14,071 bases of DNA from Sulfurimonadaceae bacterium (GTDB lineage: Bacteria > Campylobacterota > Campylobacteria > Campylobacterales > Sulfurimonadaceae), in assembly GCA_041548245.1 (NCBI GenBank), contig JBFESZ010000049.1, forward strand, positions 1 through 14,071, written 5' to 3'. Positions 854 through 14,071 of the stretch are shown piece after piece. The notes beneath the pieces were generated by a model. It was not told the DNA's origin. It made no database searches and was given only the letters and a program-made list of their open reading frames with translations. A program made the translations under genes and the position numbers. Position 1 is the stretch's first letter, and each line of letters starts with the position of its first letter.

Positions 854-876
854 CAAAACAGATATCAACCGTTTTG
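854..876 (-). terminator. Hairpin downstream of the GGDEF-EAL gene, possible terminator
   Basis: Minus strand CAAAACGG-TTGATAT-CTGTTTTG (8-bp stem with one G-U), about 20 nt after the stop at 896; no clear separate U-tract. Confidence 0.35.
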
Positions 877-895: not shown

Positions 896-2593
896 TCAGA
901 ATACTTTAAAAAGAGATGCCATAGGTTCAGGCTCTGCATAATAGTGCCCTTGTGCATAATCAACACCCATCTCTTTCAAGATAGCTTCTACTTCCGGACT
1001 TTCAACAAACTCACAAATTGTCTTCATACCCATAGTGTGGCCTACCTCATTAATCGACTTTACCATAGCTCTGTTGACCTTGTCTGTATCAATATTATTC
1101 ACAAACGAACCGTCTATTTTCAAATAATCCACAGGGATGTTCTGCAAATATGAAAAAGAGGAGAGCCCGCTTCCAAAATCATCCAAAGAGAACTTGCAAC
1201 CCAGTTTTCGCATCTTTTTTATAAATTGTAAAGCCACATTCAAATTTGCTACAGCCGCCGTTTCCGTCACCTCAAAACAGATAGTATCAGGAGTAATCTT
1301 ATAACGTATAAAAAGCTCCTGAATGGATCTTTCCAAACCTTTGTCATTAAGTGAAATTCCCGAAAGGTTGATACTAAAACGATATGCCCTACCTGTGTCC
1401 TTTTGGAGTTTCACAGATTCTTTAAAGACATTCTCAATCACCCATCTGTCAATACGCTGCATCATCCCATAACGCTCAGCCGCAGGGATGAAGGCCATAG
1501 GTGGGATGATCTTGCCATCATCATCTTCCAGACGAATCAAGACCTCATAATGACTTAAAGGCTCACTCTCTTGCCCCAGAGCGATAATGGGTTGGACAAA
1601 AAGTAAAAACTTATCCTTTTCCAAAGCCTCAGTAAGCTTAGAGAGCCATTGCATCTGGCCGCGTCTCTCCTGAAGCTTCTGGTTATCACGGGTTGCGATA
1701 TAGATACGGTTCCTACCCTCTTCTTTAGCCTGATAACAAGCTGCATCCGCTGCTGATATAATATCGATCAATGAACAGCAGTCCCGTACTATAGGCACCA
1801 TTCCCATACTGGCCCCAATAACGAAAACCTTTCCTTCCCATGAGAAACGGTACTCTTTGATACTGCGTAAAATAGCTTCTGCTTTCTTGCGTGCAGTTTC
1901 AAGGGTATCACCGACAAAGAGTACACCAAACTCGTCTCCACCCAAACGCGCCACTATGTCCTTGGCACCGACATGTTTTTGCAGTATCAAAGAGACCTGT
2001 TTTAACAGCTCATCACCTGCCATATGTCCTGAAGTATCATTGACTACCTTAAACTGATCCAAATCAACATAACACATAATGCTCTGATTTGATACGGTTG
2101 AGGAGTATTTGAGTGCAAACTGCAGGCGTCTTTCAAACTCATATCGGTTATACAAACCGGTAATGCTGTCATGTATCGCGAGATGTTGAAGTTCTTTCGT
2201 ACGGTTCTTAACCTCTTCTTCAAGATTGTGCGAATGCTTGCTAAGCTTCTCATTCAGATTCTGGTTCATAAAATCGGCACGGGCCAAAGCATCTGTGTTG
2301 ACCGTCACTTCATACCCCAAAGCAAAGAATAGCCCGATAATGATGATGATGTTCAAACGTATTAATAAAGGGTCATCAATAAACAGAAACATCAGCACAA
2401 AAAAACCGATGCAGAATGTGAAAAGATTAAGGTGCATCCCCATGCAAGACTTGACATGTAATTGACAATAATTACATCTCTCATAAGGCTTAAACCCATT
2501 GCGGGCCAAGATGCAATGTTTATTGACCTTTCCTATCTGTTCAGTGAAAAGATCATTTTCATGACTATTCTCAACATCTCCTAGACTAGGCAT
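896..2593 (-). CDS. Membrane-anchored diguanylate cyclase/phosphodiesterase (GGDEF-EAL) with Cys-rich N-terminus
   Basis: GGDEF motifs: HDSITGLYNR, VDLDQFKVVND, RLGGDEF. EAL motifs: EVLIR, SINLS, FEVTE, DDFGSGLSS, LKIDGSFV, CEFVE, AQGHY. Two hydrophobic segments (about aa 55-94) are followed by a coiled-coil-like linker. Confidence 0.96.
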   Translation of the reverse strand: MPSLGDVENSHENDLFTEQIGKVNKHCILARNGFKPYERCNYCQLHVKSCMGMHLNLFTFCIGFFVLMFLFIDDPLLIRLNIIIIIGLFFALGYEVTVNTDALARADFMNQNLNEKLSKHSHNLEEEVKNRTKELQHLAIHDSITGLYNRYEFERRLQFALKYSSTVSNQSIMCYVDLDQFKVVNDTSGHMAGDELLKQVSLILQKHVGAKDIVARLGGDEFGVLFVGDTLETARKKAEAILRSIKEYRFSWEGKVFVIGASMGMVPIVRDCCSLIDIISAADAACYQAKEEGRNRIYIATRDNQKLQERRGQMQWLSKLTEALEKDKFLLFVQPIIALGQESEPLSHYEVLIRLEDDDGKIIPPMAFIPAAERYGMMQRIDRWVIENVFKESVKLQKDTGRAYRFSINLSGISLNDKGLERSIQELFIRYKITPDTICFEVTETAAVANLNVALQFIKKMRKLGCKFSLDDFGSGLSSFSYLQNIPVDYLKIDGSFVNNIDTDKVNRAMVKSINEVGHTMGMKTICEFVESPEVEAILKEMGVDYAQGHYYAEPEPMASLFKVF

Positions 2594-3056
2594 CTTTTGA
2601 CCTAAATGTTTTCATCAAATATTGATACCCTATATATACCAGCGATGATAGGCAAAAACCAAAAAAGCTTGATACCAGCATAGCCACACCCATAAATGAA
2701 GCTATCATCCAAGCCGAAAGAGGAAAAACTGTATAAAGATATATGATCAGTATACCGCCCATAATACGGAGTATATCTTCAAATATCTCTGCTAACTTGT
2801 TCGTGATATATGAATGAGCATACTGGGGTGCCGTTGTAAATAGCTGACGTCCAAAAATAAAACTCAAAAATTTAAACAGCCAGGTTGTCGGAGAGTAGTT
2901 TATCGTTGTAAGAAAGGCAACTACGCTAAACCCGAAAAATATATATACGATCTCCACTTTCTGAAAAAGAACTGCAGACAACATGATAAGGCCAAAAACA
3001 AGACGCTGAAATTGCACATGTTCAGCCTTGGGCTGTTTATATTTTAAAAAAATCAT
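2586..3056 (-). CDS. DUF4395-like integral membrane protein (156 aa)
   Basis: About 4 hydrophobic segments. C-terminal FFGFCLSSLVY resembles the FGFCLGC-type motif I associate with DUF4395 (recognition by eye). ATG at 3056 is preferred over TTG at 3089. The stop overlaps the next gene's start by 8 nt. Confidence 0.7.
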   Translation of the reverse strand: MIFLKYKQPKAEHVQFQRLVFGLIMLSAVLFQKVEIVYIFFGFSVVAFLTTINYSPTTWLFKFLSFIFGRQLFTTAPQYAHSYITNKLAEIFEDILRIMGGILIIYLYTVFPLSAWMIASFMGVAMLVSSFFGFCLSSLVYIGYQYLMKTFRSKDA

Positions 3057-3062
3057 ACTTTT

Positions 3063-3068
3063 ATGATA
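3063..3068 (-). promoter_or_regulatory. -10 box (TATCAT) for a probable leaderless transcript
   Basis: Minus strand GGC-TATCAT-AAAAGT-ATG: 6-nt spacer, no SD. Confidence 0.5.
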
Positions 3069-3091: not shown

Positions 3092-5362
3092 TTATGTTTT
3101 AAAGTTTTGACACAGTGCCTGCAGGACAGTCGCTCGACGTGTTGTATCAAGCTTCTTGCATCCAGCGCTAAAGGCTGTACCCTCTCCGACAAGATGGCAC
3201 TGCCCCTTGGCTCTGGTGATTGCCGTGTAGAGCAGTTTTGTATTGTGCATAATAAAGTGCGAATAACTGATAGGAATGACGACCGTCTCATACTCCATCC
3301 CCTGTACCTTATGGATGGTCAACGCATAAGAGAGTGAAAGATAGCTTTTAAGCTGGTCAAAATCATATTGGACCACAAGTTCTTCATTGGGATAAAAGAC
3401 AAAAAGAAGTTCCTCTTCCATATCGATCTTGAAGACCAGACCTACCATCCCGTTAAAAACCCGTTTTTCAAAACTCTCACTGCCATCTTTGAATCCATCT
3501 GGTGTGAAACAGGGCATATTCTCATTTTTGATATGGACGACCTTGTCCATCAAGCGATACTCGTATTTCCCCGCTTTGACAGAATCTTTTGTCGAAGGGT
3601 TGAAGTACTGCTGCAGTACATTGTTAAGGTTCTCGCTTCCCAAACTCCCACCCTTCATCGGCGTAATGACCTGAAAAGCATTAAGATACCCCAAGATATC
3701 CTTGTTCTTCAACAACTCTCTTGAATGTGGGATCTCGGCAACTGCAAGATGCATCATCGCTGCAAGAACCTGCTGAGAGTGATCTTCACGTAACTCTTGA
3801 AGTTGCGACTTGCTCAAGGTATTTTTGAGTTGGTAGTAGTTCTCAATACCCACTTCTTTAAAGTGAAAATCATCATACTCCGCATAGAACTCAGGGACTT
3901 CTCCCTGACGGATGGTATTGGCCACCAGAGCAATAGCCTGTTTCTCGTTTTGTCTGTAAAGCTTGGTCAGTTTGACCATCGGGGCCAAATGTAGATTGAT
4001 CATATCTGAGAGTACATTACCGGCACCGATAGGAGGTAACTGTCCATCATCGCCGACGACAATAAACACGGCGTCATCATCCACCATCTTAATAAGCTGA
4101 AAAAAGAGCATGGAGTTGACCATAGAAGCCTCATCAAGAAGGATGACCTTAAAAGGCATCTCACCCTTCTCTTCATAGCGCACGATGAGACTTTGAATCG
4201 TCGAGCTTTGATACCCTGTCGTCTCCGAAATTCGCTGTGAAGCAATACCACTTAAAGCCGTACACATAATAAAACTCTCCCCTACCTTTTCTGCCATCAA
4301 ATCTAAGATAAGACGAGCCGAAGTCGATTTACCTGTCCCGGCATACCCCACAAGAAGCAAGATCGATGAGCCCTGATTAAGGATCTCTACAGCGCGACGC
4401 TGCTCTTCTGAGAGCCTAAAGCCTGCTTTCTCTTCGCGCTGAGCGATGAAACTGTCCAAGTCTTTCTTGATCTCTCCAAAATCCTGCCGGCATTTCTTCT
4501 TAATGAAAGAGAGTATCTGCTCCTCCGCATAATAATAGACATCGGGTGCGAGCAGTTCTCCAAACTGATGCAAATGCCCGTCATTGACCATCTCCAAAAC
4601 CGTTTTTTCGTACAGCTCTCTATGATTAAAAAGAGCCAGTTCTTCATCTAGCCGTTCATATAGAGTCATCTTAGAGATACAGGAATTCCCCTGCATGTCA
4701 CAGAGTTCTCTGATGAGATAGTTTGTTGCGGCATGCAGTCTGTTCTCATCCAGATTGCCAACACCCATCTTCTTGCCAATCTCATCAGCCCGCTTAAAGC
4801 CTATTCCCTTGATACGTGTTAATATATAGGGATTGTTTTTGATCTTCTCAGCAGGGTTAGGTACCTCTTTTAGTTGGGTGGCTATCAGATGGATCATTGC
4901 AGAACTGACATCATAGGGAGCAAGAAACTCTCCCAGTTCTCGAACTGAGCGAAACTGTTTCCAGGACTTTTGTATGCGTTCAAGCTTTTTCTCTTTGACC
5001 CCTTTGAACTCCAAAAGCCTCTCGATGTCATTATCCAAAACATTAACCAAGCCTTCTTCCCCAAACTTCTCTATGAGGTCTGAAGTAAGTTTTTTGGTAA
5101 AACCCTTGACCACCCGGTTGAGAAAGAAAAAAAGTTCGGATTGATTGACTTTGACAGCACTGCATTTAAAGGTTGACCCATATTTCTTATGCTCGACCAA
5201 TTCCCCTTCAAGCGTGACTGCTGCTCCAATCAGACTTTGTACAGGTGCCTCGACATACTCACCTGAGACCTTTGTCTTATCACTTAATACAGCAATAAAA
5301 AAGCTCTCGTTCTCATAGATGATACTATCAATCTGTCCAATAAGTTTCTGTGGGGTTTTCAT
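3092..5362 (-). CDS. recD2: ATP-dependent RecD-like DNA helicase (RecD2, SF1B)
   Basis: N-terminal OB-like part and HhH repeats (FKGVKEKK, IKGIGFKRAD), Walker A GYAGTGKS, Walker B LLDEASM, VGDDGQLPPIGAG, YRQ, YALTIHKVQGMEY, LLYTAITRAK. ATG at 5362 is preferred; TTG at 5380 is an alternative. Confidence 0.93.
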   Translation of the reverse strand: MKTPQKLIGQIDSIIYENESFFIAVLSDKTKVSGEYVEAPVQSLIGAAVTLEGELVEHKKYGSTFKCSAVKVNQSELFFFLNRVVKGFTKKLTSDLIEKFGEEGLVNVLDNDIERLLEFKGVKEKKLERIQKSWKQFRSVRELGEFLAPYDVSSAMIHLIATQLKEVPNPAEKIKNNPYILTRIKGIGFKRADEIGKKMGVGNLDENRLHAATNYLIRELCDMQGNSCISKMTLYERLDEELALFNHRELYEKTVLEMVNDGHLHQFGELLAPDVYYYAEEQILSFIKKKCRQDFGEIKKDLDSFIAQREEKAGFRLSEEQRRAVEILNQGSSILLLVGYAGTGKSTSARLILDLMAEKVGESFIMCTALSGIASQRISETTGYQSSTIQSLIVRYEEKGEMPFKVILLDEASMVNSMLFFQLIKMVDDDAVFIVVGDDGQLPPIGAGNVLSDMINLHLAPMVKLTKLYRQNEKQAIALVANTIRQGEVPEFYAEYDDFHFKEVGIENYYQLKNTLSKSQLQELREDHSQQVLAAMMHLAVAEIPHSRELLKNKDILGYLNAFQVITPMKGGSLGSENLNNVLQQYFNPSTKDSVKAGKYEYRLMDKVVHIKNENMPCFTPDGFKDGSESFEKRVFNGMVGLVFKIDMEEELLFVFYPNEELVVQYDFDQLKSYLSLSYALTIHKVQGMEYETVVIPISYSHFIMHNTKLLYTAITRAKGQCHLVGEGTAFSAGCKKLDTTRRATVLQALCQNFKT

Positions 5363-5379
5363 AGGAGATATTGTACTCA

Positions 5380-5403
5380 AACATCCTTTTGATTAAGGAT
5401 GTT
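5380..5403 (-). terminator. Perfect 9-bp hairpin between glyQ and recD2, likely the glyQ terminator
   Basis: AACATCCTT-N6-AAGGATGTT, 14 nt downstream of the glyQ stop. Confidence 0.55.
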
Positions 5404-5417
5404 ATGACAGAAGGAAA

Positions 5418-6302
5418 TTAATTGGCCGCGACCCTTGCATTTCTCTCAGCTTCTTGTTCCTTGTAAAGCTCAGCACACCCTTTTGAAAGATCACGTATCT
5501 GCAAGATATAATTGGCACGTTCCGTTACAGAGATCGCCTTACGGGCATCCAAGACATTGAAGGTGTTAGACGCGGCCATACACAGATCATAAGCCGGAAG
5601 AGGAAGACCGGCATCCAAAGCGGCCTTGCACTCTTTTGACTTGGCATCAAAATCGGCAAACAACATAGCCGTATCCGCTACCTCAAAGTTATATTTTGAA
5701 AACTCGATCTCGCTCTCTTTGTGTATGTCACGATACAGTGTCTTGCCATATTCGTTCTCATTCCAAACGATATCAAAGACCGAGTCTACTCCCTGAAGAT
5801 ACATCGCCAGACGCTCTGTACCGTATGTGATCTCAACAGCAACCGGGTCACAACTGATCCCACCAACCTGTTGGAAATAGGTAAACTGTGTCACTTCCAT
5901 ACCGTTCAACCAGACTTCCCAGCCAAGTCCCCATGCACCAAGCGTTGGAGACTCCCAGTTATCCTCGACAAAACGGATGTCATGCTCTGATAAATCCAGC
6001 CCCAAATACTCCAGACTCTTTAAATACAGTTCCTGTATGTTGTCCGGGCTGGGTTTGATAAGTGCCTGAAACTGATAGTAGGATCCGAGACGGTTTGGGT
6101 TCTCTCCATAGCGACCATCTGTCGGACGGCGACTTGGTGCGACGTATGCGACAGACCACGGCTTGGAATCAAGCGAACGTAAAAACGTCGCAGGATGAAA
6201 GGTCCCAGCGCCAGCAGGAATATCGTATGGCTGAACGATATTACACCCCTGCTCTTTCCAGAACATCTGAAGCTTTAAAAGTAAATCACTAAAGGTAATC
6301 AT
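5418..6302 (-). CDS. glyQ: Glycine--tRNA ligase alpha subunit
   Basis: [74 protein letters not shown] at 6311-6308 fits the ATG at 6302 (alternative 6305). Confidence 0.99.
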
Positions 6303-6340
6303 CATATCTCCATCGTAGCAAGGCTACATTTATTGCGCGT

Positions 6341-6791: not shown

Positions 6792-7691
6792 TTACTTAAT
6801 ATAGGTTGAGAAGTCAGCATCTAAAAACTTTCTAAACAATTTATAAAAGACCCACAAAGCGACAAGGGGAATAAGCATGTTTTCGACAATAAAGATGGTT
6901 ATAAGCACCAAAATATAATCAATAGCATGGTCAAACTTCTGCTGCAGGTTGTTCAAAAGTGTTTTTAATCTCATTTTCAAAGTCTGCAACTGCTTGCTTA
7001 TATTTAAACTCTGAATCGTCTCATTGAAATAGTTTTGTGCCTTTTCCAGCAGGGAGTTTTCTTGATACCTCTGTACGTGAATCTGTTTTTGTTGGTTCAA
7101 ATGGACTTCATCCACAATCCCTTTGATCTCATCATTTGAAAACACCAACGCAGCCTTGGCCTCCTCATACTTCGGTTCAAGAACATAGGTGTATATACCT
7201 TCATTAAACACGATCAAAAGAGGAACAACAAAACGTAAGAATAAAAAGATGATGACACCTTTGGAAAGGATATTGAACGTTTTCTCATGCCATATTCTGC
7301 GTTCCCACAACATCAGAAGGATGAGCGATACACTGGTCATTAAAAGAAGCTGTACGGCCATGGTCTGACCCAGGTGCAACATGATCTCCTGAACCCCCAA
7401 AGAGATTGAACTCATCAGCATAACCCATGAAAAGCGCTCAACCATATCATTCATCGGATCGACAATCTGTCCGACTGCAAAGTTAACACCGACTCCGGCA
7501 GGCGTCGCATACACTTCGGTACCTTGGACAACGGAGATGACTCCGTTGAGACCTCTGGCAATTGCAAAAACCGTAACTGAACGGGTAAATGCTTTGTCCA
7601 GTTGAGCTGAACTGAACCTGTCAACTGTCTGAGTAGATGAGAGAAAAACAAGTATAATCAGCGAAAATGAAATCAATATTTTTTTATACAT
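6792..7691 (-). CDS. Conserved hypothetical multi-pass membrane protein (299 aa)
   Basis: Several hydrophobic segments, a conserved-looking core (ARGLNGVISVVQGTE...PAGVGV...GQIVDPMNDMVERFSWVML) and a long helical soluble segment before the last TM. ATG at 7691 is preferred over the ORF-track start at 7736. Confidence 0.85.
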   Translation of the reverse strand: MYKKILISFSLIILVFLSSTQTVDRFSSAQLDKAFTRSVTVFAIARGLNGVISVVQGTEVYATPAGVGVNFAVGQIVDPMNDMVERFSWVMLMSSISLGVQEIMLHLGQTMAVQLLLMTSVSLILLMLWERRIWHEKTFNILSKGVIIFLFLRFVVPLLIVFNEGIYTYVLEPKYEEAKAALVFSNDEIKGIVDEVHLNQQKQIHVQRYQENSLLEKAQNYFNETIQSLNISKQLQTLKMRLKTLLNNLQQKFDHAIDYILVLITIFIVENMLIPLVALWVFYKLFRKFLDADFSTYIK

Positions 7692-7697
7692 ATGCTT

Positions 7698-7703
7698 ATT
7701 ATA
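7698..7703 (-). promoter_or_regulatory. -10 box (TATAAT) for a probable leaderless transcript
   Basis: Minus strand GGG-TATAAT-AAGCAT-ATG: 6-nt spacer, no SD. Confidence 0.6.
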
Positions 7704-7723
7704 CCCTAGATAAAACAATGATT

Positions 7724-8086
7724 CTAATCTCCACAAAAGTTTCCGTCACAAGCGGGGATAACACCCAAATCACTCCCGCTCGTCGTCAAAAACTTGACAA
7801 GATGCCGACGGCGATTCTTATAATAAGACCTACTCAAAGCCTTAATTGCTTTTTCATTTCCCATATGAATAAACAAGATCTTTTCATCGCCATCTCTAAA
7901 AAGTCTCTTCCACTCCTGTGATGTATACATCGCGGCCCCTTTATAGGGATTCCCATGACAGCTTTTACAGAGTTTGATATAGGTTTTTATCCCCTCTTCC
8001 GAATAGTTTTGACGGGCCTGTAAACTGCTGGCACATAAAACTAAAAGCACTGACAACGCTACGGCTTTCATTGAGATAACACACAT
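7724..8086 (-). CDS. Periplasmic monoheme c-type cytochrome
   Basis: Signal peptide (KAVALSVLLVLCASSLQA), one CKSCH heme motif and C-terminal SDLGVIPACDGNFCGD. AGAGGG SD upstream of ATG 8086 (alternative start 8071). Confidence 0.88.
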   Translation of the reverse strand: MCVISMKAVALSVLLVLCASSLQARQNYSEEGIKTYIKLCKSCHGNPYKGAAMYTSQEWKRLFRDGDEKILFIHMGNEKAIKALSRSYYKNRRRHLVKFLTTSGSDLGVIPACDGNFCGD

Positions 8087-8121: not shown

Positions 8122-8334
8122 CATCAATAACAGATCTGTACCATTGTCTTTTTTCTGTAAGGTTCACTACAACAATCGACCTGCTAAACCTATAACCTTT
8201 TTTGTTCTGATGTATAAATCTATTTTGTCACCTTCTGAACCAACCCAAAGGATATCAATAATTTTTTATAAGAAAACTTTATGCAAAAAAAGGGTTCAAT
8301 TAAGAATAAGACTTTTTTAAAAAAAGGATTTAAC

Positions 8335-8685
8335 ATGCAAGCCAAAGACTTAGAATTTTTCAAAGAACAACTCTTAAGTGCAAAAAGTCATATTCTTCAA
8401 AATGTGGATCTTGCATCGCAGGAACTTAATCAACTGCAGACCCAAGAGAACAATGATGACATGGATTTTGCCTCTATGCGAAGCGATGCAATGATAGAGC
8501 AGGTGATCTCTGATCAGCAAAAGTCCGAACTTGCTGATATCGAACATGCCTTGAAGCGAATCGAAGAGGGAAACTATAATATCTGTGAAATGTGTTCAGA
8601 AGAGATAGGCATGTCCAGGCTCAAAGCGAAACCCTATGCCAGACTCTGCATGACCTGCCGTCCTTTATATGAGAAATCGAAGTAG
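8335..8685 (+). CDS. dksA: RNA polymerase-binding transcription factor DksA
   Basis: Coiled coil with DxxDxA tip (DDMDFA) and C4 zinc finger (CEMC...CMTC). AAGGA SD precedes the ATG at 8335, preferred over 8281. Confidence 0.93.
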   Translation: MQAKDLEFFKEQLLSAKSHILQNVDLASQELNQLQTQENNDDMDFASMRSDAMIEQVISDQQKSELADIEHALKRIEEGNYNICEMCSEEIGMSRLKAKPYARLCMTCRPLYEKSK

Positions 8686-8712
8686 CCCTATTAGCTGCTT
8701 GTAATATTTTTC

Positions 8713-8721
8713 TGTTATTAT
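8713..8721 (+). promoter_or_regulatory. Extended -10 for a probable leaderless aroK transcript
   Basis: TG-T-TATTAT-TTTTCC-ATG: 6-nt spacer, pyrimidine-rich with no SD. Confidence 0.55.
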
Positions 8722-8727
8722 TTTTCC

Positions 8728-9255
8728 ATGAAAAACAATAATATTATTCTAATGGGTTTTATGGGTGTAGGAAAAGGATCTCTTGCACGAGAACTCGCCA
8801 AGCAAACTGGACGTATCGCCATAGACACCGATGACCTCATCGAAAGTCTTGAGAACACGACAATCAAAAAGATCTTCAAAAAAAAGGGTGAAGCCTATTT
8901 TAGAAAACGTGAGAAGGAATTCTCACACTGGTTGCAACAAAGTGTCAAAGACACTATTATCTCCATCGGTGGCGGTTTCTACCAGGTCGGAAATCTTCAA
9001 GAAATCGGTCATGTGATTTATCTCGAAGCCTCATTTGATGCCATTCTTGATCGTATCCATGCTTGTGACAATGCTAAAAACAAGTTAAAAAAACGCCCAC
9101 TTCTACAAGATATAAAAAAGGCAAAAAAACTGATGGACAGTCGTCATCCACACTACATAGCATGTGCCGATACCGTCATCCATACCTCAGGAAAAAGCTC
9201 AACACAAATAGCTAAAGAGATCATCAATATCTTGCCACTTTTAAACAATAAATAG
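8728..9255 (+). CDS. aroK: Shikimate kinase
   Basis: NIILMGFMGVGKGS (P-loop), IDTDDLIE, GEAYFR, SIGGG, KRPLL. Confidence 0.96.
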   Translation: MKNNNIILMGFMGVGKGSLARELAKQTGRIAIDTDDLIESLENTTIKKIFKKKGEAYFRKREKEFSHWLQQSVKDTIISIGGGFYQVGNLQEIGHVIYLEASFDAILDRIHACDNAKNKLKKRPLLQDIKKAKKLMDSRHPHYIACADTVIHTSGKSSTQIAKEIINILPLLNNK

Positions 9256-9330
9256 ATTATATCTTGATAAAAGCTGCAGAAGCGCTCATTTTTGCTTCAT
9301 CTTCCTTGTAAAAAGTAATCTTTTTGTAAT

Positions 9331-9358
9331 TTTACTGGAGTATAATCATTCTAGTAAA
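9331..9358 (+). promoter_or_regulatory. T2SS cluster promoter: TATAAT (9341-9346) flanked by an imperfect inverted repeat
   Basis: TTTACTGGAG-TATAATCA-TTCTAGTAAA (arms match 8/10), about 80 nt upstream of gspG. Confidence 0.5.
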
Positions 9359-9425
9359 TATCCTTATACTCTCAACAGAATATGATGATTTCGAGAGGAT
9401 AAAAGAAGCACTAAAGGTTAAAACA

Positions 9426-9857
9426 ATGCAAAGTCAATTCAGAAATGCTTTTTCTTTAATAGAGTTAATGATTGTCATCGTAATCTTGGGATTGTTGGCA
9501 GCAATGGTTATGCCAAATCTAACAGGAAAAGGTGAAGAAGCAAAACGAAATCTTGTCTGCGTACAGATGAAAAGTATCTACAATGGGGGCCTTGATATGT
9601 TTAAAATCAATAACAGTGTATATCCTTCGACAGAAGAGGGTCTAAAAGCCTTGGTCGAAAACCCTGATGAAGAAAAATATCCTAACTACTCGCCTTCTGG
9701 ATATTTCAAAGATTCAAAAATCCCAAAAGACTCATGGGGAAGTGAATTCATCTATATCAATGATGAAGGTTCAATTGAGCTTATCTCCTTGGGAGCCGAC
9801 AGAAAAGAAGGTGGCAAAGACGAAAAAGCCGATATTAGAATGAGTAGCTGCAAGTAG
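9426..9857 (+). CDS. gspG: Type II secretion major pseudopilin GspG
   Basis: Prepilin motif A|FSLIELMIVIVILGLLA, then YPSTEEGLKALV, PKDSWG, SLGAD..EGG....ADI. AAAGG SD. Confidence 0.95.
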   Translation: MQSQFRNAFSLIELMIVIVILGLLAAMVMPNLTGKGEEAKRNLVCVQMKSIYNGGLDMFKINNSVYPSTEEGLKALVENPDEEKYPNYSPSGYFKDSKIPKDSWGSEFIYINDEGSIELISLGADRKEGGKDEKADIRMSSCK

Positions 9858-9862
9858 TCTAT

Positions 9863-10366
9863 TTGAAAAAAGCGTTTTCTTTGATTGAGTTGCTTATCGT
9901 TGTTGTGATTATAGGAGTTGTTTACATGCTGGCTGTTCAAAACCTCCAAAGCTTTAAAGAACCCGCAACGACGCTAAGCCTAAAGAATATCAAAGAGTAT
10001 CTATACGCTTTTCCACATACAAAAAGTGTCCAACTCTTATGTCTGGATGACTGTTCCAGCTGTAACATCATTGTAGACGACTATCAAGACCCCACTATCG
10101 ACTCTATTGATGATTTCATAGATGATTCCATACAGACCTATCAATATGATTTTCATCTAGGCTTTCAAGAACAGGCTAAACAAATCTTTTTCACTGAAGA
10201 TAACATTGAAAAGAGTGTATGTTTTTCATTATCTGTGGATAAACAAGGTGTAAGCGAACAGGTCATTGTCAAATTTAAAGACAAAATTTATGACTATACG
10301 CCATACTTGACCCCGACACCTGTGTACAACTCTCTCAAAGAGCTTGCTGCCACTAAAGGTATATAA
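9863..10366 (+). CDS. Minor pseudopilin (GspH-like), prepilin N-terminal cleavage/methylation domain
   Basis: KKA|FSLIELLIVVVIIG, TTG start, directly after gspG; contains CLDDCSSC. Confidence 0.8.
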   Translation: MKKAFSLIELLIVVVIIGVVYMLAVQNLQSFKEPATTLSLKNIKEYLYAFPHTKSVQLLCLDDCSSCNIIVDDYQDPTIDSIDDFIDDSIQTYQYDFHLGFQEQAKQIFFTEDNIEKSVCFSLSVDKQGVSEQVIVKFKDKIYDYTPYLTPTPVYNSLKELAATKGI

Positions 10367-10369
10367 CAG

Positions 10370-11584
10370 ATGGTTTTTAAATATAAGGGTCTGACACCTG
10401 AAGGCAACTGGACAAAAGGGAAACTCGAAGCGCAGACTCTTGAAGAGGCCAAGAGCAAATTAAAAGTCAAAAAGATTGTCTATAAGAGCATAGTCGAAGA
10501 CACCCCCTCTTTTTTTGACAATATTAGCTTGTCACGAAAATACAGACTCACTACCAACGAACTCTCTTCGCTCTCTCGGGAGCTCTCAATGTACATTCGC
10601 TCAGGTATCAGTATAGTCTCTGCTTTGAGAATCATGCAGACGCATTACGAGAACAACAAACAGATGAAACTGTTTTTGACAACCCTCTCTACCCATCTGG
10701 ATGAGGGAAATAACTTCTACTCTGCTTTAGAATCCCAAAAGATTGTCAAACTGCCCGAATTTTATAAACAATCCATTAAAGTCAGTGAAAATGGAGGGAT
10801 ACTTGATGAAGTACTTCTGGAACTTTCGCGATTTTTAAAAGAACAGGACAAGATCAAAAAAGAGATAAAAGGGGCCTTCGCCTATCCGGCATTTATGGTT
10901 GTCATATCGCTGTTAATGATCTCATTTATGCTGGCTTTTGTTGTTCCTCAAATAACTGGAATTTTTGAAAGTATGAACCAGGAATTGCCCTTGGCAACAC
11001 GTATAGTAATCTCAATGGGTGACTTTTTTAATAACAACTTCAACACTATTTTAATCCTGATTTTTGTCATGACAACTCTATTTATACTACTGATGCAAAA
11101 AAGCCATCGCTTTGCCTACCGTATGCATGCGCTACTACTCAGACTGCCTCTCTTTGGCCAAATAGCACAGAAAAGTGAACTTGCACGCTTCTCTTACATC
11201 GCCTCTTTATTGGTACGTTCCGGTGTGCCCTTTGTCCAGACCATCAACCTTAGTGCCAATATACTAAACAACCTGGTCTTAAGAGAGATATTCGTCTCCA
11301 GTGCAAAAAAAGTGGTAGAAGGAAAGCCTCTCTCAAGTGCCCTCAATGATGCAGGCACTCAGGTAGACTATGCCTTTATACAGTCTATCGCCTTGGGCGA
11401 AGAGACTTCCCAGCTTGAAAATGTACTCACAAATATGTCTGACCTCTATTTTGAAGAGAACCGGGACAAGATCAGCATGCTGTTGACACTTTTGGAACCT
11501 GCCCTGATGCTTTTTGTGGGCGGAAGCATAGGCTTTATTGTAGCAGCCATGTTATTACCTTTGTTTTCAATGAGTGTGGGATAA
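10370..11584 (+). CDS. gspF: Type II secretion system inner-membrane platform protein F
   Basis: 404 aa with FKYKG start, two T2SSF repeats, AFAYPAF, FVVPQI, LGEETSQL, LLEPALML and three TM segments. Confidence 0.93.
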   Translation: MVFKYKGLTPEGNWTKGKLEAQTLEEAKSKLKVKKIVYKSIVEDTPSFFDNISLSRKYRLTTNELSSLSRELSMYIRSGISIVSALRIMQTHYENNKQMKLFLTTLSTHLDEGNNFYSALESQKIVKLPEFYKQSIKVSENGGILDEVLLELSRFLKEQDKIKKEIKGAFAYPAFMVVISLLMISFMLAFVVPQITGIFESMNQELPLATRIVISMGDFFNNNFNTILILIFVMTTLFILLMQKSHRFAYRMHALLLRLPLFGQIAQKSELARFSYIASLLVRSGVPFVQTINLSANILNNLVLREIFVSSAKKVVEGKPLSSALNDAGTQVDYAFIQSIALGEETSQLENVLTNMSDLYFEENRDKISMLLTLLEPALMLFVGGSIGFIVAAMLLPLFSMSVG

Positions 11585-11585
11585 G

Positions 11586-12491
11586 ATGGGAAAAAGAGGG
11601 ATCGCCCTGCTCATCACGATATTGTTTGTGATGGCTATTTCTATCAGCATCGGAATCGGACTCAAATATGTCAATAAGGCCTCTGCCGAAGTCGAAAACG
11701 AGAACTTTTTATTTCGTACCCGAGTGATTACCGATGATATTCTCAAACTCTTAAAAAGCTCAAAAGAGCTGGATGCGTTGATTAACGATTCTTCTATAGA
11801 GGGCTTGTTCATGTTTTTATCCCAATCAGGCTTTATCCCATTAGAGATCTCAGATCTCAAAATAAGCATGGAAATCAGCAGTGCCAGGGCAATGTTCAAT
11901 CCCAACACACTTTGTGATGGAAACAATACGATTGCATGGAAGAAAGTTGATGCCCTCAAAGAGTACATGAGCAAACATCATATCAGCCAAGTTTACACCG
12001 ACATTCTTCTGGATAATGTCAACCCTTCAAGCCTTTCTTACAATACCAGTCTCTTTGATGAAAACCCCGAGCTTTTTAGAGATTACATTGCATCAAATAC
12101 CCATTTAGAAAAGTTAAACGACTTTTACACCCAAAGATACTACGATAACAAGGTAAAAGAGATAAACTTGGACAAACTGTTTTATCCAAGCCCGGATAGA
12201 CACACACGTATTGACCTAAACTACGCCACTTCTGAAGTTTGGGAAATGATGCTTGGTGTCGATACAGTAAGAGCCGAGCATCTTAGCCTAGGTGGTGGTG
12301 GCTACACAAACCTTGAATCTCTCGGCTTAAATGAAGAAGAAAAAAAGTCACTTTCACGATTTGAAGTCAGTTATTTTGAACCGGTATTAGACATTAAATT
12401 GCAAATCATTCAAAATGACAAAAGTGCACATATACGATTCGAATATGATATCAAAAACAAACAAGGATTAAATTTCAGTTATGCAATTTAA
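11586..12491 (+). CDS. GspK-like minor pseudopilin
   Basis: KRG|IALLITILFV lacks Glu5, as is typical of GspK. About 300 aa with an IDLNYA motif, in T2SS context. ATG at 11586 is preferred over GTG at 11574. Confidence 0.7.
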   Translation: MGKRGIALLITILFVMAISISIGIGLKYVNKASAEVENENFLFRTRVITDDILKLLKSSKELDALINDSSIEGLFMFLSQSGFIPLEISDLKISMEISSARAMFNPNTLCDGNNTIAWKKVDALKEYMSKHHISQVYTDILLDNVNPSSLSYNTSLFDENPELFRDYIASNTHLEKLNDFYTQRYYDNKVKEINLDKLFYPSPDRHTRIDLNYATSEVWEMMLGVDTVRAEHLSLGGGGYTNLESLGLNEEEKKSLSRFEVSYFEPVLDIKLQIIQNDKSAHIRFEYDIKNKQGLNFSYAI

Positions 12492-13410
12492 CAAACAATA
12501 TAAAGTTCTGTTTTTAGATCCAGACTATGATATAAAATATACTGATGAAAAAGTTGATATCATTTTATCGCCATCACTCTACTGGATTAAAAAAGTCTCA
12601 CTTCCACTCAACAGTTTACGGGAAGTAAAAGCACTACTGCCTTCCATATTTGAGGACACTCTTCCTGATGGAATTTTTAGTTACAGCGTCTATAAAAGTG
12701 AACACGACTCTCTGTTTTATGCATTTGCCTATGAAGACAAAAAAGTATTGGATGTCCTTGCACAAAAAAACATACCTGTCAGCAATATAAACAGTGTACA
12801 CTTTGCTCAAAGCGAGCTTAACAACATTGAGCATGCTATATATATCAATAACGATCAATGTCTGTACACAAAGGACTCTACCGTTGTATTACTCCCCTCT
12901 TCCTGGATAGAAGAAAAAGAAAAATTAGATCTAAGCAACATTACACTCTCAAAGCATAAAGTCACACTTCAACAGTTTGCCCATCTGATAGACTACAAAA
13001 GTCTTTATGGTATCATCACTGTACTGACTCTCTTGATTCTTCTTACCGGTAGTGAATGGTTCATCACCACACAAAGATCGGCAGACATTAGAGCAAAAAC
13101 GGATGAGTTCTTTGTAAAAGAAAAGCTCAGCGCAACAATGTTTGAAAACAGGTCAATCCTGAAAAAATATGAAAAAACGCATGAGTTTCAGACAAAACTC
13201 CGCGAATACCTCACCCAGCTTCTAACACTGAAGTTAAACAAGAATGAGAAAATGACTCGGATAGGTTTGAAAAGCAAAACAATCTTCGCTGACTTCAGTA
13301 ACATCAATAAACAGCGAACTGCTGAGATCACATCACTCTTGAACTCAACAGGCATGCCATTGACACAAGTACTCAAAGATGGGGTATTACATCTGGAGAT
13401 AAAGATATGA
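12481..13410 (+). CDS. GspL-like T2SS assembly platform protein
   Basis: Cytoplasmic N-domain, single TM (about aa 175-195) and periplasmic coiled coil; overlaps both neighbours. Assigned by topology and position. Confidence 0.6.
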   Translation: MQFNKQYKVLFLDPDYDIKYTDEKVDIILSPSLYWIKKVSLPLNSLREVKALLPSIFEDTLPDGIFSYSVYKSEHDSLFYAFAYEDKKVLDVLAQKNIPVSNINSVHFAQSELNNIEHAIYINNDQCLYTKDSTVVLLPSSWIEEKEKLDLSNITLSKHKVTLQQFAHLIDYKSLYGIITVLTLLILLTGSEWFITTQRSADIRAKTDEFFVKEKLSATMFENRSILKKYEKTHEFQTKLREYLTQLLTLKLNKNEKMTRIGLKSKTIFADFSNINKQRTAEITSLLNSTGMPLTQVLKDGVLHLEIKI

Positions 13411-13814
13411 ATCGTATAAATCCTATCCATATCGTTGTATTATTGACAATTATATTGATCATTGCCCTGTATTCACTTGCTTCAAGCAAACGTGAACTGA
13501 CAGAGAACAAGGAGACTTTCAAGTCAACTCAGGAAGTTGCCCAGAGGCTGATCGCCTTGAAAGATGTATATGCGAATAAGGTCAGGATCAAACAATCTTT
13601 ACAGAGAATACTGAACGATGCGATGATTAAATCTTCAACCATTGCGACTGATTTTAAAAAAAACTCCGTCAGTATTCATGCAGAGAACATCGATTTGAAA
13701 ACACTAAACCTTCTTGTCGGTAAACTTCTTAATGCAGCCTATATCATTGAATCTATGGATATCAAGAATACGAGCGACAGCCTGGCTGAACTAAAAATGG
13801 AGATAAAATGGTAA
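13407..13814 (+). CDS. GspM-like T2SS protein
   Basis: N-terminal TM, coiled coil and small alpha/beta C-domain; ATGA overlap with the upstream gene. Assigned by topology and position. Confidence 0.6.
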   Translation: MNRINPIHIVVLLTIILIIALYSLASSKRELTENKETFKSTQEVAQRLIALKDVYANKVRIKQSLQRILNDAMIKSSTIATDFKKNSVSIHAENIDLKTLNLLVGKLLNAAYIIESMDIKNTSDSLAELKMEIKW

Positions 13815-14071
13815 AAGTGGGAAAATTTTTTGCATATTCACTTTTCTTTATCCTGGCGCTGATATATCTTACGCCAAAAGCCAGTGTCTACCACTTTTTT
13901 GAAGAGCAGCTCAAGCCTTACTCTATTGTTCTTAATAATGAGTCTGTTACGGAAAGTCTGCTTGGACTGGATATCACCGATGGAATATTATTCGTCCAGT
14001 CGGTAGAAGCTGCTGAGATCAAATCCATAGAAGTCAATCTCTTTGTCCTGTTTAATGCCATCGATATAAAG
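13808..14071 (+). CDS. GspN-like membrane-anchored protein, truncated at the right edge; not in the ORF track
   Basis: Manual translation from ATG 13808 is open to the end: MVKVGKFFAYSLFFILALIYLTPKASVYHFFEEQLKPYSIVLNNESVTESLLGLDITDGILFVQSVEAAEIKSIEVNLFVLFNAIDIK. N-terminal TM followed by Pro, then beta-rich sequence. Confidence 0.7.
   Translation, partial: MVKVGKFFAYSLFFILALIYLTPKASVYHFFEEQLKPYSIVLNNESVTESLLGLDITDGILFVQSVEAAEIKSIEVNLFVLFNAIDIK

What the first reader, a model, noticed from the sequence alone, without database searches (positions are those of the whole stretch)
896..3068. Candidate two-protein c-di-GMP sensing module: DUF4395-like membrane protein coupled to a GGDEF-EAL enzyme with no periplasmic sensor
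Seen: the two genes overlap by 8 nt (2586-2593), have their own -10 at 3063-3068 and a hairpin after the second gene, so they look like a self-contained bicistron. The enzyme's two TM helices are joined only by a tiny loop (DDP) and lead through a coiled coil into GGDEF, with no PAS, GAF, Cache or CHASE domain evident. The partner has a single Cys at the end of its last TM (FGFCLSS). Recalled, unverified: DUF4395 proteins are uncharacterised and in Actinobacteria often lie beside thioredoxin and sulfurtransferase genes. Inference: the small protein is a co-sensor that packs against the enzyme's TM hairpin and relays a thiol, sulfane-sulfur or metal signal to c-di-GMP turnover.
Basis: partly seen in the sequence, partly recalled or inferred. 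Interest (0 to 1): 0.75.

Follow-up and report, generated by a model that had tools for sequence, protein, structure and literature searches.

The report
Two-part cysteine-rich membrane sensor for c-di-GMP
A small four-helix membrane protein and the cysteine-rich membrane anchor of a c-di-GMP enzyme look like two halves of one undescribed sensor, which other bacteria encode as a single fused protein or attach to histidine kinases.

Summary
The gene pair is real. A 156-aa four-helix membrane protein (2586-3056, minus strand) overlaps by 8 nt a 565-aa GGDEF-EAL enzyme (896-2593).

The pairing is well supported:
- In 353 genomes of the same family, every such cysteine-rich anchor is fused to, or directly follows, a homologous four-helix part.
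- Fused forms fall in at least four lineages.
- In Patescibacteria the same anchor heads histidine kinases, and 38 of 38 testable loci have the small partner directly upstream.

There is one counter-example. Seven metagenomic kinase loci have the anchor but no adjacent partner.

The partner is a divergent DUF4395 protein. No Pfam family or solved structure covers the cysteine-rich anchor.

The signal is inferred only. Cysteine desulfurase, SufE or cysteine-synthase-type genes precede 36 of 37 Patescibacteria modules. Canonical DUF4395 genes sit beside Rrf2 regulators and sulfur amino-acid enzymes. This points to sulfur, thiol or iron-sulfur status.

The complex prediction gave no verdict. The proposed terminator hairpin is weak.

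The parts
2586..3056 (-). Gene for the 156-aa four-helix membrane protein (divergent DUF4395 / YgaP-like TM), the partner half of the sensor
   Evidence: ORF and translation. Pfam YgaP-like_TM 28.1 bits, DUF4395 17.1 bits. hhalign 99.8% to canonical DUF4395. Hydrophobic helices at about aa 18-33, 36-52, 95-112 and 116-142, with three K/R residues in each of the N-tail, central loop and C-tail.
2652..2663 (-). FGFC motif (aa 132-135) with the single cysteine C135 at the cytoplasmic end of the last helix
   Evidence: G133 and C135 are kept in 61 of 61 partner sequences from both phyla, and F134 in 59 of 61. C135 is the only Cys in the protein.
2586..2593 (-). 8-nt overlap of the stop codon of the small gene with the start codon of the enzyme gene (ATGCCTAG)
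   Evidence: The same ATGnnTAA/TAG/TGA overlap is found in 8 of 10 same-genus loci. One locus has a 4-nt overlap and one has a 2-nt gap.
896..2593 (-). Gene for the 565-aa membrane GGDEF-EAL enzyme
2444..2515 (-). Four-cysteine motif (aa 27-50: C27, C40, C43, C50), cytoplasmic, directly before the membrane hairpin
   Evidence: The four cysteines are invariant in 32 of 32 family sequences. The same spacing is found in 51 of 52 remote N-terminal hits; the remaining one is a 51-aa fragment. No Pfam family covers this region.
2300..2437 (-). Membrane hairpin of the enzyme (aa 53-98) with the three-residue loop DDP
   Evidence: Hydropathy and alignment.
2180..2299 (-). Helical linker (aa 99-138) between the membrane hairpin and the GGDEF domain
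   Evidence: Conserved heptad-like stretch in the alignments. A long helix continues from the last membrane helix in the model of a fused relative.
1706..2179 (-). GGDEF domain (aa 139-296). Contains DLDQFKVVND and GGDEF; no RxxD inhibition site
   Evidence: Pfam 128.4 bits; motifs.
929..1639 (-). EAL domain (aa 319-555). Contains EVLIR, DDFGSG, KID, EFVE and QG
   Evidence: Pfam 231 bits; motifs.
3063..3068 (-). TATCAT, a possible -10 box ending 6 nt before the ATG of the small gene (would give a leaderless or near-leaderless mRNA)
   Evidence: Sequence. TAnnAT at the same place in 10 of 10 same-genus loci. Not called by the promoter scan. Function is inferred.
854..876 (-). Weak 8-bp A/U-rich stem-loop about 20 nt after the enzyme's stop codon
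   Evidence: z 0.58, no better than shuffles. No terminator called here.
3092..5380 (-). recD2 helicase gene, the upstream neighbour 35 nt away (context; possibly co-transcribed)
   Evidence: Pfam and NCBIfam. Synteny.

Best explanation
The two genes encode the two halves of one membrane-integral sensor that controls c-di-GMP turnover.

Half one is a four-helix DUF4395-type protein. Both of its ends and its central loop face the cytoplasm, and an invariant cysteine (C135) sits at the cytoplasmic end of helix 4. Half two is the enzyme's N-terminal input module. It consists of a cytoplasmic four-cysteine motif followed by a two-helix membrane hairpin and a helical linker into GGDEF-EAL.

Shown:
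- The two halves are co-inherited.
- Their genes overlap at the stop and start codons, which fits translational coupling (inferred).
- In relatives they are fused in this same order.
- The cysteine-rich hairpin is a modular input domain. It also heads histidine kinases, a PP2C-type phosphatase and an HD-GYP-type protein.

Inferred:
- The halves pack into a six-helix bundle.
- The five conserved cysteines lie together at the inner membrane face.
- They hold a metal centre, either an iron-sulfur cluster or zinc, or they act as a thiol/persulfide switch.
- Its state is passed through the linker to shift the balance between c-di-GMP synthesis and hydrolysis. Both catalytic domains look intact by sequence.
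- The signal is most likely linked to sulfur: sulfide or persulfide, cysteine, or iron-sulfur status.

My odds: the halves work as one module, about 0.8; the signal is sulfur, thiol or iron-sulfur related, about 0.5; a specific cofactor, no more than 0.3 each.
For: Conservation within the genus:
- The order recD2, small gene, enzyme is kept in 9 of 9 other same-genus loci. The overlap of the stop and start codons is also kept.

Family-wide search (353 genomes, query a fused sensor module; parsed):
- 33 genomes have a match. 32 of them carry the cysteine-rich hairpin, and in every one it is either fused to the four-helix part or directly downstream of it on the same strand. The thirty-third, G008, has only a stop-riddled fragment.
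- 5 genomes carry a fused GGDEF form of about 445-475 aa.
- 11 genomes carry a fused GGDEF-EAL form of 706-724 aa.
- 18 genomes carry the split form, in four genera.
- Two genomes carry both a split and a fused form.

Independent fusions:
- A tree of the hairpin module needs 5 changes between fused and split (18 fused and 27 split rows).
- The AU test allows one of the fused groups to be a single clade. That leaves at least 4 fused lineages.

Search of 1.84 billion representatives with the fused-module profile:
- Only 73 hits.
- 6 carry the full fused module, one of them with a kinase output.
- 15 are four-helix-only proteins.
- 52 carry the cysteine-rich hairpin at the N-terminus. Their outputs are GGDEF-EAL (4), GGDEF-HEAT (1), histidine kinases (35), GAF-SpoIIE (1) and GAF-HD_5 (1). 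Ten are fragments or have no output domain.

Patescibacteria (39 kinase loci):
- A homologous partner of about 140 aa lies directly upstream in 37 loci.
- It is frameshifted into two pieces in 1 locus.
- 1 locus is cut by the contig end.
- So 38 of 38 testable loci have it.

Conserved residues:
- The four cysteines are invariant in 32 of 32 sequences.
- C135 and G133 are kept in 61 of 61 partners.

Signal context:
- The gene directly upstream of the partner in Patescibacteria is Aminotran_5 (cysteine-desulfurase type) in 23 loci, SufE in 11 and PALP (cysteine-synthase type) in 2. That is 36 of 37 loci with upstream DNA, while the outer flanks vary.
- Among 13 canonical DUF4395 loci of the order, Rrf2 regulators are adjacent in 3, including one in this genome. 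Cys_Met_Meta_PP enzymes are adjacent or one gene away in 4.
- Helices 3-4 match the membrane domain of the rhodanese YgaP.
- A DUF2892 gene was about 10-fold induced under H2S oxidation in Azospira (PMC5358917, passage read).

Catalytic motifs of both domains are intact.
Against: - The pairing is not universal. In 7 of 7 metagenomic loci of one kinase clade (L103-L109) no four-helix partner was found within the flanks (hmmsearch E<=1). Two of these loci are short. The neighbours there are SCO1/SenC and PCuAC copper chaperones, a fatty-acid hydroxylase, rhodanese and a sulfur-globule protein. The cysteine-rich hairpin may therefore work alone, or with a partner encoded elsewhere.
- No physical contact has been shown.
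- The cysteine motif is modelled with pLDDT below 50, so no geometry or cofactor can be read from the model.
- In the window's own family no sulfur gene is a consistent neighbour. The upstream gene is recD2/glyQ in two genera and IlvD in 9 of 9 checked loci of a third.
- Many of the counted loci are kin, so the counts overstate independence.
- The window's own small protein is below Pfam's DUF4395 cut-off.
- Four cysteines could be a purely structural zinc site.
Confidence: 0.6

Rival explanations
1. The cysteine-rich hairpin is the whole sensor, for example a metal or iron-sulfur site that reads oxygen, nitric oxide, copper or iron-sulfur supply. The DUF4395-type protein would then be only a scaffold, stabiliser or insertion helper that some lineages have and others do without.
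For: In 7 of 7 loci of one kinase clade no adjacent partner was found. All four cysteines lie in the enzyme half. The spacing C-x2-C-x6-C plus one distant Cys resembles the cluster-binding motifs of FNR and WhiB-like proteins (recalled, not tested).
Against: The partner keeps its own invariant residues (R18, W116, G133, F134, C135, Y141) across two phyla. That is more than a passive scaffold would need. Fusion in at least four lineages and 38 of 38 adjacency in Patescibacteria argue for an integral role. A partner encoded elsewhere cannot be excluded for the metagenomic contigs.
Confidence: 0.2
2. The DUF4395-type protein is a small transporter or channel for a sulfur compound, and the signalling protein reads its working state. 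This would resemble co-sensing pairs of transporters and kinases. The four cysteines would be structural zinc.
For: DUF4395 and YgaP-like genes recur beside enzymes that make or use sulfide or persulfide: cysteine-desulfurase type, SufE, cysteine-synthase-type and Cys_Met_Meta_PP enzymes. Earlier notes of this scan list DUF4395 beside rhodanese, CysO, cysM and thioredoxin genes (leads only). The YgaP paper's title and the part of its abstract shown in the search listing report binding of thiocyanate (PMC4730233, search listing only).
Against: A bundle of four short helices with very short outer loops is small for a transporter. No structural match to any transporter was found (inconclusive). 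No transport assay exists for the family.
Confidence: 0.15
3. The pair is a single gene broken by a frameshift, either a decaying pseudogene or an assembly error. The small ORF would then have no separate role.
For: Fused one-gene forms exist in relatives. Two loci (L028, L029) have the halves separated only by in-frame stop codons.
Against: The split form, with intact ORFs and a kept overlap of the stop and start codons, is found in 18 genomes of four genera at 64-79% identity within the genus. It is the rule in Patescibacteria. Both halves keep their invariant residues.
Confidence: 0.03

Closest known systems
DUF4395 (Pfam PF14340), including the canonical copy in this same genome that is followed by an Rrf2 regulator
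   Same: Length of about 140-155 aa. Four helices. Full-length profile match (hhalign 99.8%). A cysteine in the G-F-C position near the end of helix 4. Sits next to a cysteine-bearing regulator or signalling protein.
   Different: The window protein scores below the Pfam cut-off (17.1 against 24.5 bits). It lacks the N-terminal C-P-I cysteine and the second cysteine of the C-x-G-C motif seen in canonical members of the order. No function is published for the family: 2 incidental mentions for 'DUF4395' and 2 for 'PF14340'.
YgaP of E. coli (membrane rhodanese; Pfam YgaP-like_TM, formerly DUF2892)
   Same: Helices 3-4 with the G-x-C motif match YgaP-like_TM above the cut-off (28.1 bits). Both have a link to sulfur chemistry.
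   Different: YgaP has one two-helix hairpin joined to a cytoplasmic rhodanese domain. Here there are two hairpins, no rhodanese, and the partner is a signalling enzyme. For the YgaP papers I saw only search listings.
CSS-domain c-di-GMP phosphodiesterases of E. coli (PdeC type)
   Same: A membrane-anchored EAL enzyme whose input is a pair of membrane helices with conserved cysteines acting as a redox switch (review PMC8846402, passage read; PMC13712737, listing only).
   Different: In the CSS domain the cysteines lie in a periplasmic loop between the helices. Here the loop is three residues (DDP) without cysteine, the cysteines are cytoplasmic and number four, and a second membrane protein belongs to the module.
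Iron-sulfur sensor proteins (NreB kinase, FNR, WhiB-like, Rrf2 family)
   Same: A short stretch with three or four invariant cysteines ahead of a signalling output. NreB is a kinase whose [2Fe-2S] cluster senses sulfide (PMC13478379, abstract read).
   Different: Those are soluble proteins with known folds (PAS, CRP-type, Wbl, winged helix). Here the motif is tied to a membrane bundle and has no detectable sequence or structure relative. Cluster binding is untested. The FNR and WhiB spacings are recalled, not checked.
Histidine kinases that need an accessory membrane protein or transporter as co-sensor (for example DcuS with DctA, BceS with BceAB; recalled)
   Same: A signalling protein with a minimal membrane hairpin and no extracytoplasmic domain, paired with a separate membrane protein.
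   Different: The partner here is a 156-aa protein of unknown activity. The pair is also found fused. Outputs include c-di-GMP enzymes.

Membership tests
DUF4395 (PF14340) | Score at or above Pfam's gathering cut-off (24.5 bits) | tested here: not met
   The window protein scores 17.1 bits, E 0.007, over profile positions 7-127 of 130. Relatives of the same subfamily do pass: 30.3 bits (L037 partner); 38.5, 29.5, 53.6 and 47.8 bits (P0048, P0050, P0062, P0076). 22 of 40 fused relatives carry PF14340 in the precomputed annotation.
DUF4395 (PF14340) | Full-length homology by profile-profile comparison | tested here: met
   hhalign of A4 against A9 gives probability 99.8%, E 1.4e-27, over 138 columns. 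Caveat: 2 of the 11 rows of A9 (P0048, P0061) are partner-like, which favours the match.
DUF4395 (PF14340) | The cysteine pattern of canonical members (N-terminal C-P-I, C-x-G-C at the end of helix 4) | tested here: not met
   Only the first cysteine of the C-x-G-C position is kept (C135). The N-terminal cysteine is absent.
YgaP-like_TM (PF11127) | Score at or above the gathering cut-off (25.3 bits) | tested here: met
   28.1 bits at aa 94-136, profile positions 10-53 of 66.
YgaP-type membrane sulfurtransferase | Rhodanese domain on the same polypeptide | tested here: not met
   No rhodanese match in the small protein or in the enzyme.
GGDEF diguanylate cyclase | GGDEF signature and metal/substrate residues (D-x-D-x-F-K-x-x-N-D) | tested here: met
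   Pfam 128.4 bits. GGDEF at aa 218 and DLDQFKVVND at aa 177. No RxxD site five residues before GGDEF. Activity was not tested.
EAL phosphodiesterase | E-x-L-x-R, DDFG(T/S)G, K-I-D, E-x-V-E and Q-G residues | tested here: met
   Pfam 231 bits. EVLIR at aa 350, DDFGSG at 471, KID at 492, EFVE at 528, QG at 548. The residue list is recalled. Activity was not tested.
CSS-domain phosphodiesterases | Periplasmic loop with two cysteines between the two membrane helices | tested here: not met
   The loop is DDP, three residues with no cysteine.
Iron-sulfur cluster sensors | Three or four conserved cysteine ligands | tested here: met
   Four cysteines are invariant in 32 of 32 sequences and present in 51 of 52 remote N-terminal hits.
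Iron-sulfur cluster sensors | Bound Fe-S cluster | not testable with these tools
   The motif is modelled at pLDDT below 50. This needs anaerobic purification and spectroscopy.
Two-protein co-sensor pairs (accessory membrane protein plus signalling protein) | Physical contact and dependence of signalling on the partner | not testable with these tools
   Only genomic evidence is available: fusion, adjacency and overlapping stop and start codons.

The most novel reading that the evidence does not exclude
DUF4395 proteins and the four-cysteine hairpin together form an undescribed membrane sensor of sulfide, persulfide or iron-sulfur status. The DUF4395 half would bring or gate a sulfur species at the inner membrane face. 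The five cysteines would hold a labile iron-sulfur or polysulfide centre, and its state would switch kinases, phosphatases and c-di-GMP enzymes. In Patescibacteria this would close a feedback loop with the adjacent cysteine desulfurase and SufE genes. In sulfur-oxidising Sulfurimonadaceae it would couple sulfide supply to c-di-GMP-controlled behaviour. It would also give the first function to DUF4395.
Probability: 0.25. Interest if true: 0.85.

Novelty: new variant of a known kind. Interest (0 to 1): 0.72.

Why it matters
Most input domains of c-di-GMP enzymes and histidine kinases that lie within the membrane have no known signal.

This work defines a compact, modular input: a four-cysteine motif plus a two-helix hairpin. 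No Pfam or NCBIfam model covered it in the proteins scanned, and it has no solved relative. It also shows that the input travels with a DUF4395-type membrane protein, either as a separate gene or fused.

The consequences are these:
- It gives a first testable role to DUF4395, a family with no published function in the library searched.
- It offers natural single-chain versions (about 445 and 710 aa) for structural work.
- It points to a simple two-component system, tied to cysteine desulfurase and SufE, in the reduced genomes of Patescibacteria.
- A 2022 census of c-di-GMP sensory inputs contains no occurrence of 'iron-sulfur' or 'Fe-S'. An iron-sulfur or persulfide input here would therefore be a new class for c-di-GMP signalling.

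Tried and rejected
- Complex prediction of the small protein with enzyme residues 14-112, using own alignments A4 and A5, gave no verdict. The scores were 0.03 and 0.01 against a mark of 0.32, and the controls were not run. This is evidence neither for nor against binding.
- Structure of a fused sensor module (alignment A3, 14 rows): mean pLDDT 67.6. The four-helix part is confident (block means mostly about 70-92). The cysteine motif is below 50 and helices 5-6 are at 64-74.
- Foldseek against the PDB found no match at E<=0.001; the best was E 1.
- VIA-align wide search gave only generic helical-bundle rows at Z 7-8, within the noise stated for helical models.
- Sequence search of solved structures with A5 and A4 found nothing better than E 0.82.
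- The ESM Atlas search gave scores of 0.88 or less, so no lead.
I repeated it with closer sequences (A7).
- Programmed frameshifting to make a fused protein was considered and dropped. The junction sequences of the 10 same-genus loci share no slippery motif.
- A shared sulfur-gene neighbour within Sulfurimonadaceae was looked for and not found.
- Earlier notes of this scan near the window, or with similar sequence: none.
- Literature searches found no description of the module: DUF4395, DUF2892/YgaP, Patescibacteria + histidine kinase + cysteine desulfurase (0 papers), Sulfurimonas + c-di-GMP + GGDEF, membrane-associated sensor terms, and PF14340/PF11127/DUF2892.
Full report
**What is in the window**

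On the minus strand the window carries four genes in order: glyQ (5418-6305), recD2 (3092-5380), a 156-aa ORF (ATG at 3056, stop at 2586-2588) and a 565-aa ORF (896-2593). The last two overlap by 8 nt, ATGCCTAG.

Pfam finds only GGDEF (aa 139-296, 128.4 bits) and EAL (aa 319-555, 231 bits) in the large protein. NCBIfam adds only families of the same two domains. The catalytic signatures of both domains are intact: DLDQFKVVND, GGDEF, EVLIR, DDFGSG, KID, EFVE and QG. There is no RxxD inhibition site. The residue lists are recalled.

The N-terminus of the enzyme has two hydrophobic helices (aa 53-72 and 76-98) joined by DDP, followed by a helical linker.

The small protein has four hydrophobic helices arranged as two hairpins with very short outer loops. 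There are three K/R residues in each of the N-tail, the 37-residue central loop and the C-tail. This fits a topology with both ends and the central loop in the cytoplasm (the topology is inferred). Its only cysteine is C135, in FGFCLSS.

The enzyme begins with four cysteines (C27, C40, C43, C50; spacing C-x12-C-x2-C-x6-C) just before the first membrane helix. Because the GGDEF domain must be cytoplasmic and the hairpin has two helices, this motif is cytoplasmic (inferred). The four cysteines are invariant in 32 of 32 aligned family members. N24, A30, F34, P36, Y37, R39 and G52 are invariant too.

**Regulatory signals**

TATCAT lies at 3068-3063, 6 nt before the ATG. All 10 same-genus loci have a TAnnAT hexamer 5-6 nt before the ATG. 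This would fit a leaderless transcript. The promoter scan did not call it, and nothing shows that it is used.

recD2 ends 35 nt upstream. It is the upstream neighbour in 9 of 9 other same-genus loci and in 3 loci of a second genus. Read-through from recD2 is therefore equally possible.

The hairpin after the enzyme gene is an 8-bp A/U-rich stem (854-876) with no U tail. The region folds no better than shuffles (z 0.58).

**Family assignment of the small protein**

- Pfam gives YgaP-like_TM above its cut-off (28.1 against 25.3 bits, aa 94-136).
- Pfam gives DUF4395 below its cut-off (17.1 against 24.5 bits), though over nearly the whole model.
- Members of the same subfamily do pass the DUF4395 cut-off.
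- A profile of 31 partner sequences matches a profile of DUF4395 sequences at 99.8% probability over 138 columns. Two of the 11 rows in that second profile are partner-like, which favours the match.

I file it as a divergent branch of DUF4395. It lacks the N-terminal C-P-I cysteine and the second cysteine of the C-x-G-C motif seen in canonical members of the order.

The same genome has a canonical DUF4395 gene (80.8 bits) on another contig. It is followed after 2 nt by an Rrf2 regulator gene.

**Is the pairing conserved? Within the family**

The small protein alone was found in 10 of 16 other genomes of the genus. It was found in 0 of 24 genomes outside the genus in that sample. Two of the matches lay inside ORFs of 452 and 466 aa. 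These are fused proteins with, in order, the four-helix part, the cysteine motif, the two-helix hairpin, the linker and GGDEF.

A search of all 353 genomes held for the family, using such a fused sensor module as query, hit 33 genomes. Parsing the loci gave three architectures:
- Fused with GGDEF, about 445-475 aa: 5 genomes in four genera.
- Fused with GGDEF-EAL, 706-724 aa: 11 genomes of one genus, one of them cut by a contig end.
- Split, with the small gene directly upstream on the same strand: 18 genomes in four genera.

Two genomes carry both a split and a fused form. In two genomes of one genus the halves are separated only by in-frame stop codons.

The 33 hits count genomes, so the three classes sum to more than 33.

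No cysteine-rich hairpin was found without a four-helix part. The exceptions were one stop-riddled fragment (G008) and one lone four-helix gene (G159, contig 34).

A word-indexed protein search returned 40 relatives. Of these, 38 are fused GGDEF proteins of 415-460 aa. Two of them are named by their sources as from Sulfurimonadaceae and Campylobacterales.

**Beyond the family**

In a sample of 401 genomes of the phylum, the hairpin profile gave full matches only inside the family. Elsewhere only weak matches to the helices and linker appeared.

A profile of 14 fused sensor modules was then run against 1.84 billion representative proteins. It found only 73 proteins at E<=0.001. By matched range, cysteine pattern and Pfam content they divide as follows:
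- 6 carry the full fused module. One of these has a histidine-kinase output, and two have strong DUF4395 scores.
- 15 are four-helix-only proteins of 63-179 aa.
- 52 carry the cysteine-rich hairpin at their very N-terminus.

The outputs of those 52 are:

| Output | Number |
|---|---|
| GGDEF-EAL | 4 |
| GGDEF with HEAT repeats | 1 |
| Histidine kinases (some with PAS or receiver domains) | 35 |
| GAF-SpoIIE | 1 |
| GAF-HD_5 | 1 |
| Fragments or no output domain | 10 |

No Pfam family covers the hairpin in any of them. It is therefore a modular input domain.

The largest kinase subgroup was located in species-representative genomes. This gave 39 loci. Most records are titled as Patescibacteria-group lineages. 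A few carry other labels, such as 'Woesearchaeota archaeon', 'Pacearchaeota archaeon' and 'uncultured Gammaproteobacteria bacterium'.

A local HMM of the partner found an ORF of about 140 aa directly upstream on the same strand in 37 loci. It carries the same F-x-R and G-F-C motifs, and its frame mostly abuts or overlaps the kinase frame. In one further locus it is present but frameshifted into two pieces. One locus is cut by the contig end. So 38 of 38 testable loci have the partner.

Across 61 partners from both phyla, G133 and C135 are kept in 61, R18 in 60, and W116, F134, L139 and Y141 in 59 each.

**Counter-evidence**

A second subgroup was located in metagenome contigs. It is related to P0058, P0054, P0056 and P0059, and on the tree it lies closer to the window's family than the Patescibacteria clade does.

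Seven real loci were found (L103-L109). Five hold complete kinase ORFs of 380-493 aa, one of them with a PAS domain. L107 and L109 are cut at the contig end.

No ORF in any of them matched the partner HMM at E<=1. Pfam found no DUF4395 or YgaP-like domain among the 24 neighbouring ORFs scanned. Two of these loci are short.

The neighbours include divergently transcribed SCO1/SenC and PCuAC copper chaperones, a fatty-acid hydroxylase, a rhodanese, a sulfur-globule protein and a cytochrome oxidase subunit.

The hairpin can therefore occur without an adjacent partner. Whether a partner lies elsewhere in those genomes cannot be told from contigs.

**Fusions are repeated events**

On a quick maximum-likelihood tree of the hairpin module (58 rows, 101 columns, weak resolution), the fused or split state needs at least 5 changes. 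This count uses 18 fused and 27 split rows; 13 rows of unknown context were left out.

The AU test does not reject a single clade for the fused GGDEF-EAL group (p 0.589). The safe count is therefore at least four fused lineages:
- the GGDEF form;
- the GGDEF-EAL form;
- two fused proteins nested in the Patescibacteria clade;
- one fused kinase.

Repeated fusion in a fixed order, together with adjacent genes whose stop and start codons overlap, is the classical genomic signature of parts that work as one protein. Physical contact itself was not shown.

**What signal?**

Nothing here measures it. Four lines of context agree on sulfur, thiol or iron-sulfur chemistry.

1. Patescibacteria neighbours. 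In 36 of 37 loci with upstream DNA, the gene directly before the partner is one of three kinds:
   - an Aminotran_5 protein of the cysteine-desulfurase type (23 loci);
   - SufE (11 loci, preceded by Aminotran_5 in 7 and by a PALP, cysteine-synthase-type enzyme in 4);
   - PALP (2 loci).

   The exception is L089. The outer flanks differ widely (enolase, tRNA synthetases, RF-1, S7 and others), so the block is kept through rearrangements. A receiver-only response regulator follows the kinase in 15 of 33 loci that have a downstream ORF.
2. Canonical DUF4395 neighbours. Among 13 loci of the order, Rrf2 regulators are adjacent in 3. Cys_Met_Meta_PP enzymes are adjacent or one gene away in 4.
3. 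YgaP similarity. Helices 3-4 resemble the membrane domain of the rhodanese YgaP. A gene of that family was about 10-fold induced under H2S oxidation in Azospira (PMC5358917, passage read).
4. Earlier notes of this scan list DUF4395 beside rhodanese, CysO, cysM, thioredoxin and persulfide genes in other phyla. These are unchecked leads, not support.

Against this reading, the window's own family shows no constant sulfur neighbour. The upstream gene is recD2/glyQ in two genera, and IlvD, itself an iron-sulfur enzyme (recalled), in 9 of 9 checked loci of another genus. The partner-less clade sits beside copper chaperones.

Four invariant cysteines in 24 residues argue for a metal centre. The C-x2-C-x6-C spacing with one distant cysteine resembles FNR and WhiB-type cluster motifs (recalled). 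Structural zinc, copper(I) or a thiol/persulfide switch are all open. A kinase that senses sulfide through a [2Fe-2S] cluster has recently been described (NreB, PMC13478379, abstract read).

**Structure**

The model of a fused module has a confident four-helix part but an unmodelled cysteine motif. Neither Foldseek nor the wide structural search gave a match above the noise for helical bundles. Sequence searches of solved structures found nothing.

**Novelty**

- 'DUF4395' occurs in 2 papers of the library and 'PF14340' in 2 others, all incidental mentions.
- A search for Patescibacteria, histidine kinase and cysteine desulfurase together returned 0 papers.
- A 2022 census review of c-di-GMP sensory inputs contains no occurrence of 'iron-sulfur' or 'Fe-S' (term search only, not the whole text).

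I therefore regard the module as an undescribed input for known kinds of signalling proteins. Supplementary tables of the review were not opened and might list the architecture without comment.

**Verdict**

The hairpin and the bicistron claims are weak. The mechanism and the signal remain inferred.

Noticed in passing
L102:3432-4261 (G000 contig 24, 22931-23760): The same genome has a canonical DUF4395 gene (80.8 bits) followed after 2 nt by an Rrf2-family regulator gene. DUF4395 followed by Rrf2 recurs in 2 other loci of the order (L099, L101). In L099 a Cys_Met_Meta_PP enzyme follows.
   Followed up: partly
L052-L088 (Patescibacteria loci): A conserved block of cysteine-desulfurase-type gene (or SufS-like plus SufE, or PALP plus SufE), four-helix partner, cysteine-rich kinase and receiver-only response regulator, set in varying flanks. 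It may be a feedback circuit for sulfur mobilisation in reduced genomes.
   Followed up: partly
L028:163-2292 and L029:166-2298: In two genomes of another genus the two halves are separated only by in-frame stop codons (one TAA in L028; three stops in L029). This could be a recent fission or stop-codon read-through.
   Followed up: no
L031, L032, L034, L038 (small-protein genes): Partners of one genus carry an extra C-C pair in the loop between helices 3 and 4, and cysteine-rich C-terminal tails (for example R-R-C-G-G-C). These add further thiols near the cysteine motif.
   Followed up: no
L018-L027 upstream ORFs: In 9 of 9 checked loci of the genus with the fused GGDEF-EAL form, the upstream same-strand gene is dihydroxy-acid dehydratase (IlvD).
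   Followed up: no
L103-L109: The partner-less kinase clade sits next to divergent SCO1/SenC and PCuAC copper-chaperone genes and a convergent fatty-acid hydroxylase gene. Rhodanese, a sulfur-globule protein and cytochrome oxidase subunit II are nearby.
   Followed up: partly
L055:3550-3976 and 3980-5130: In one Patescibacteria MAG both the partner (103 + 50 aa) and the kinase (294 + 90 aa) are each split by a frameshift. This is either decay or assembly error.
   Followed up: no
L015:2-874 and L016:78-1295: Other c-di-GMP genes lie next to the fused GGDEF form: a protoglobin-GGDEF protein in L015 and an EAL-HDOD protein in L016.
   Followed up: no
window 8281-11584 (+): The rest of the window holds a DksA-type zinc-finger gene (8281-8685), shikimate kinase (8728-9255), and pseudopilin and T2SS-F genes of a type II secretion or type IV pilus system (9426-11584). 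Several ORFs have no Pfam match: 2-643, 6792-7736, and 11574-14071.
   Followed up: partly
L053, L061, L069, L074-L077 (record titles): Several records with the Patescibacteria-type module are titled 'Woesearchaeota archaeon', 'Pacearchaeota archaeon' or 'uncultured Gammaproteobacteria bacterium'. These are probably binning or labelling errors.
   Followed up: no
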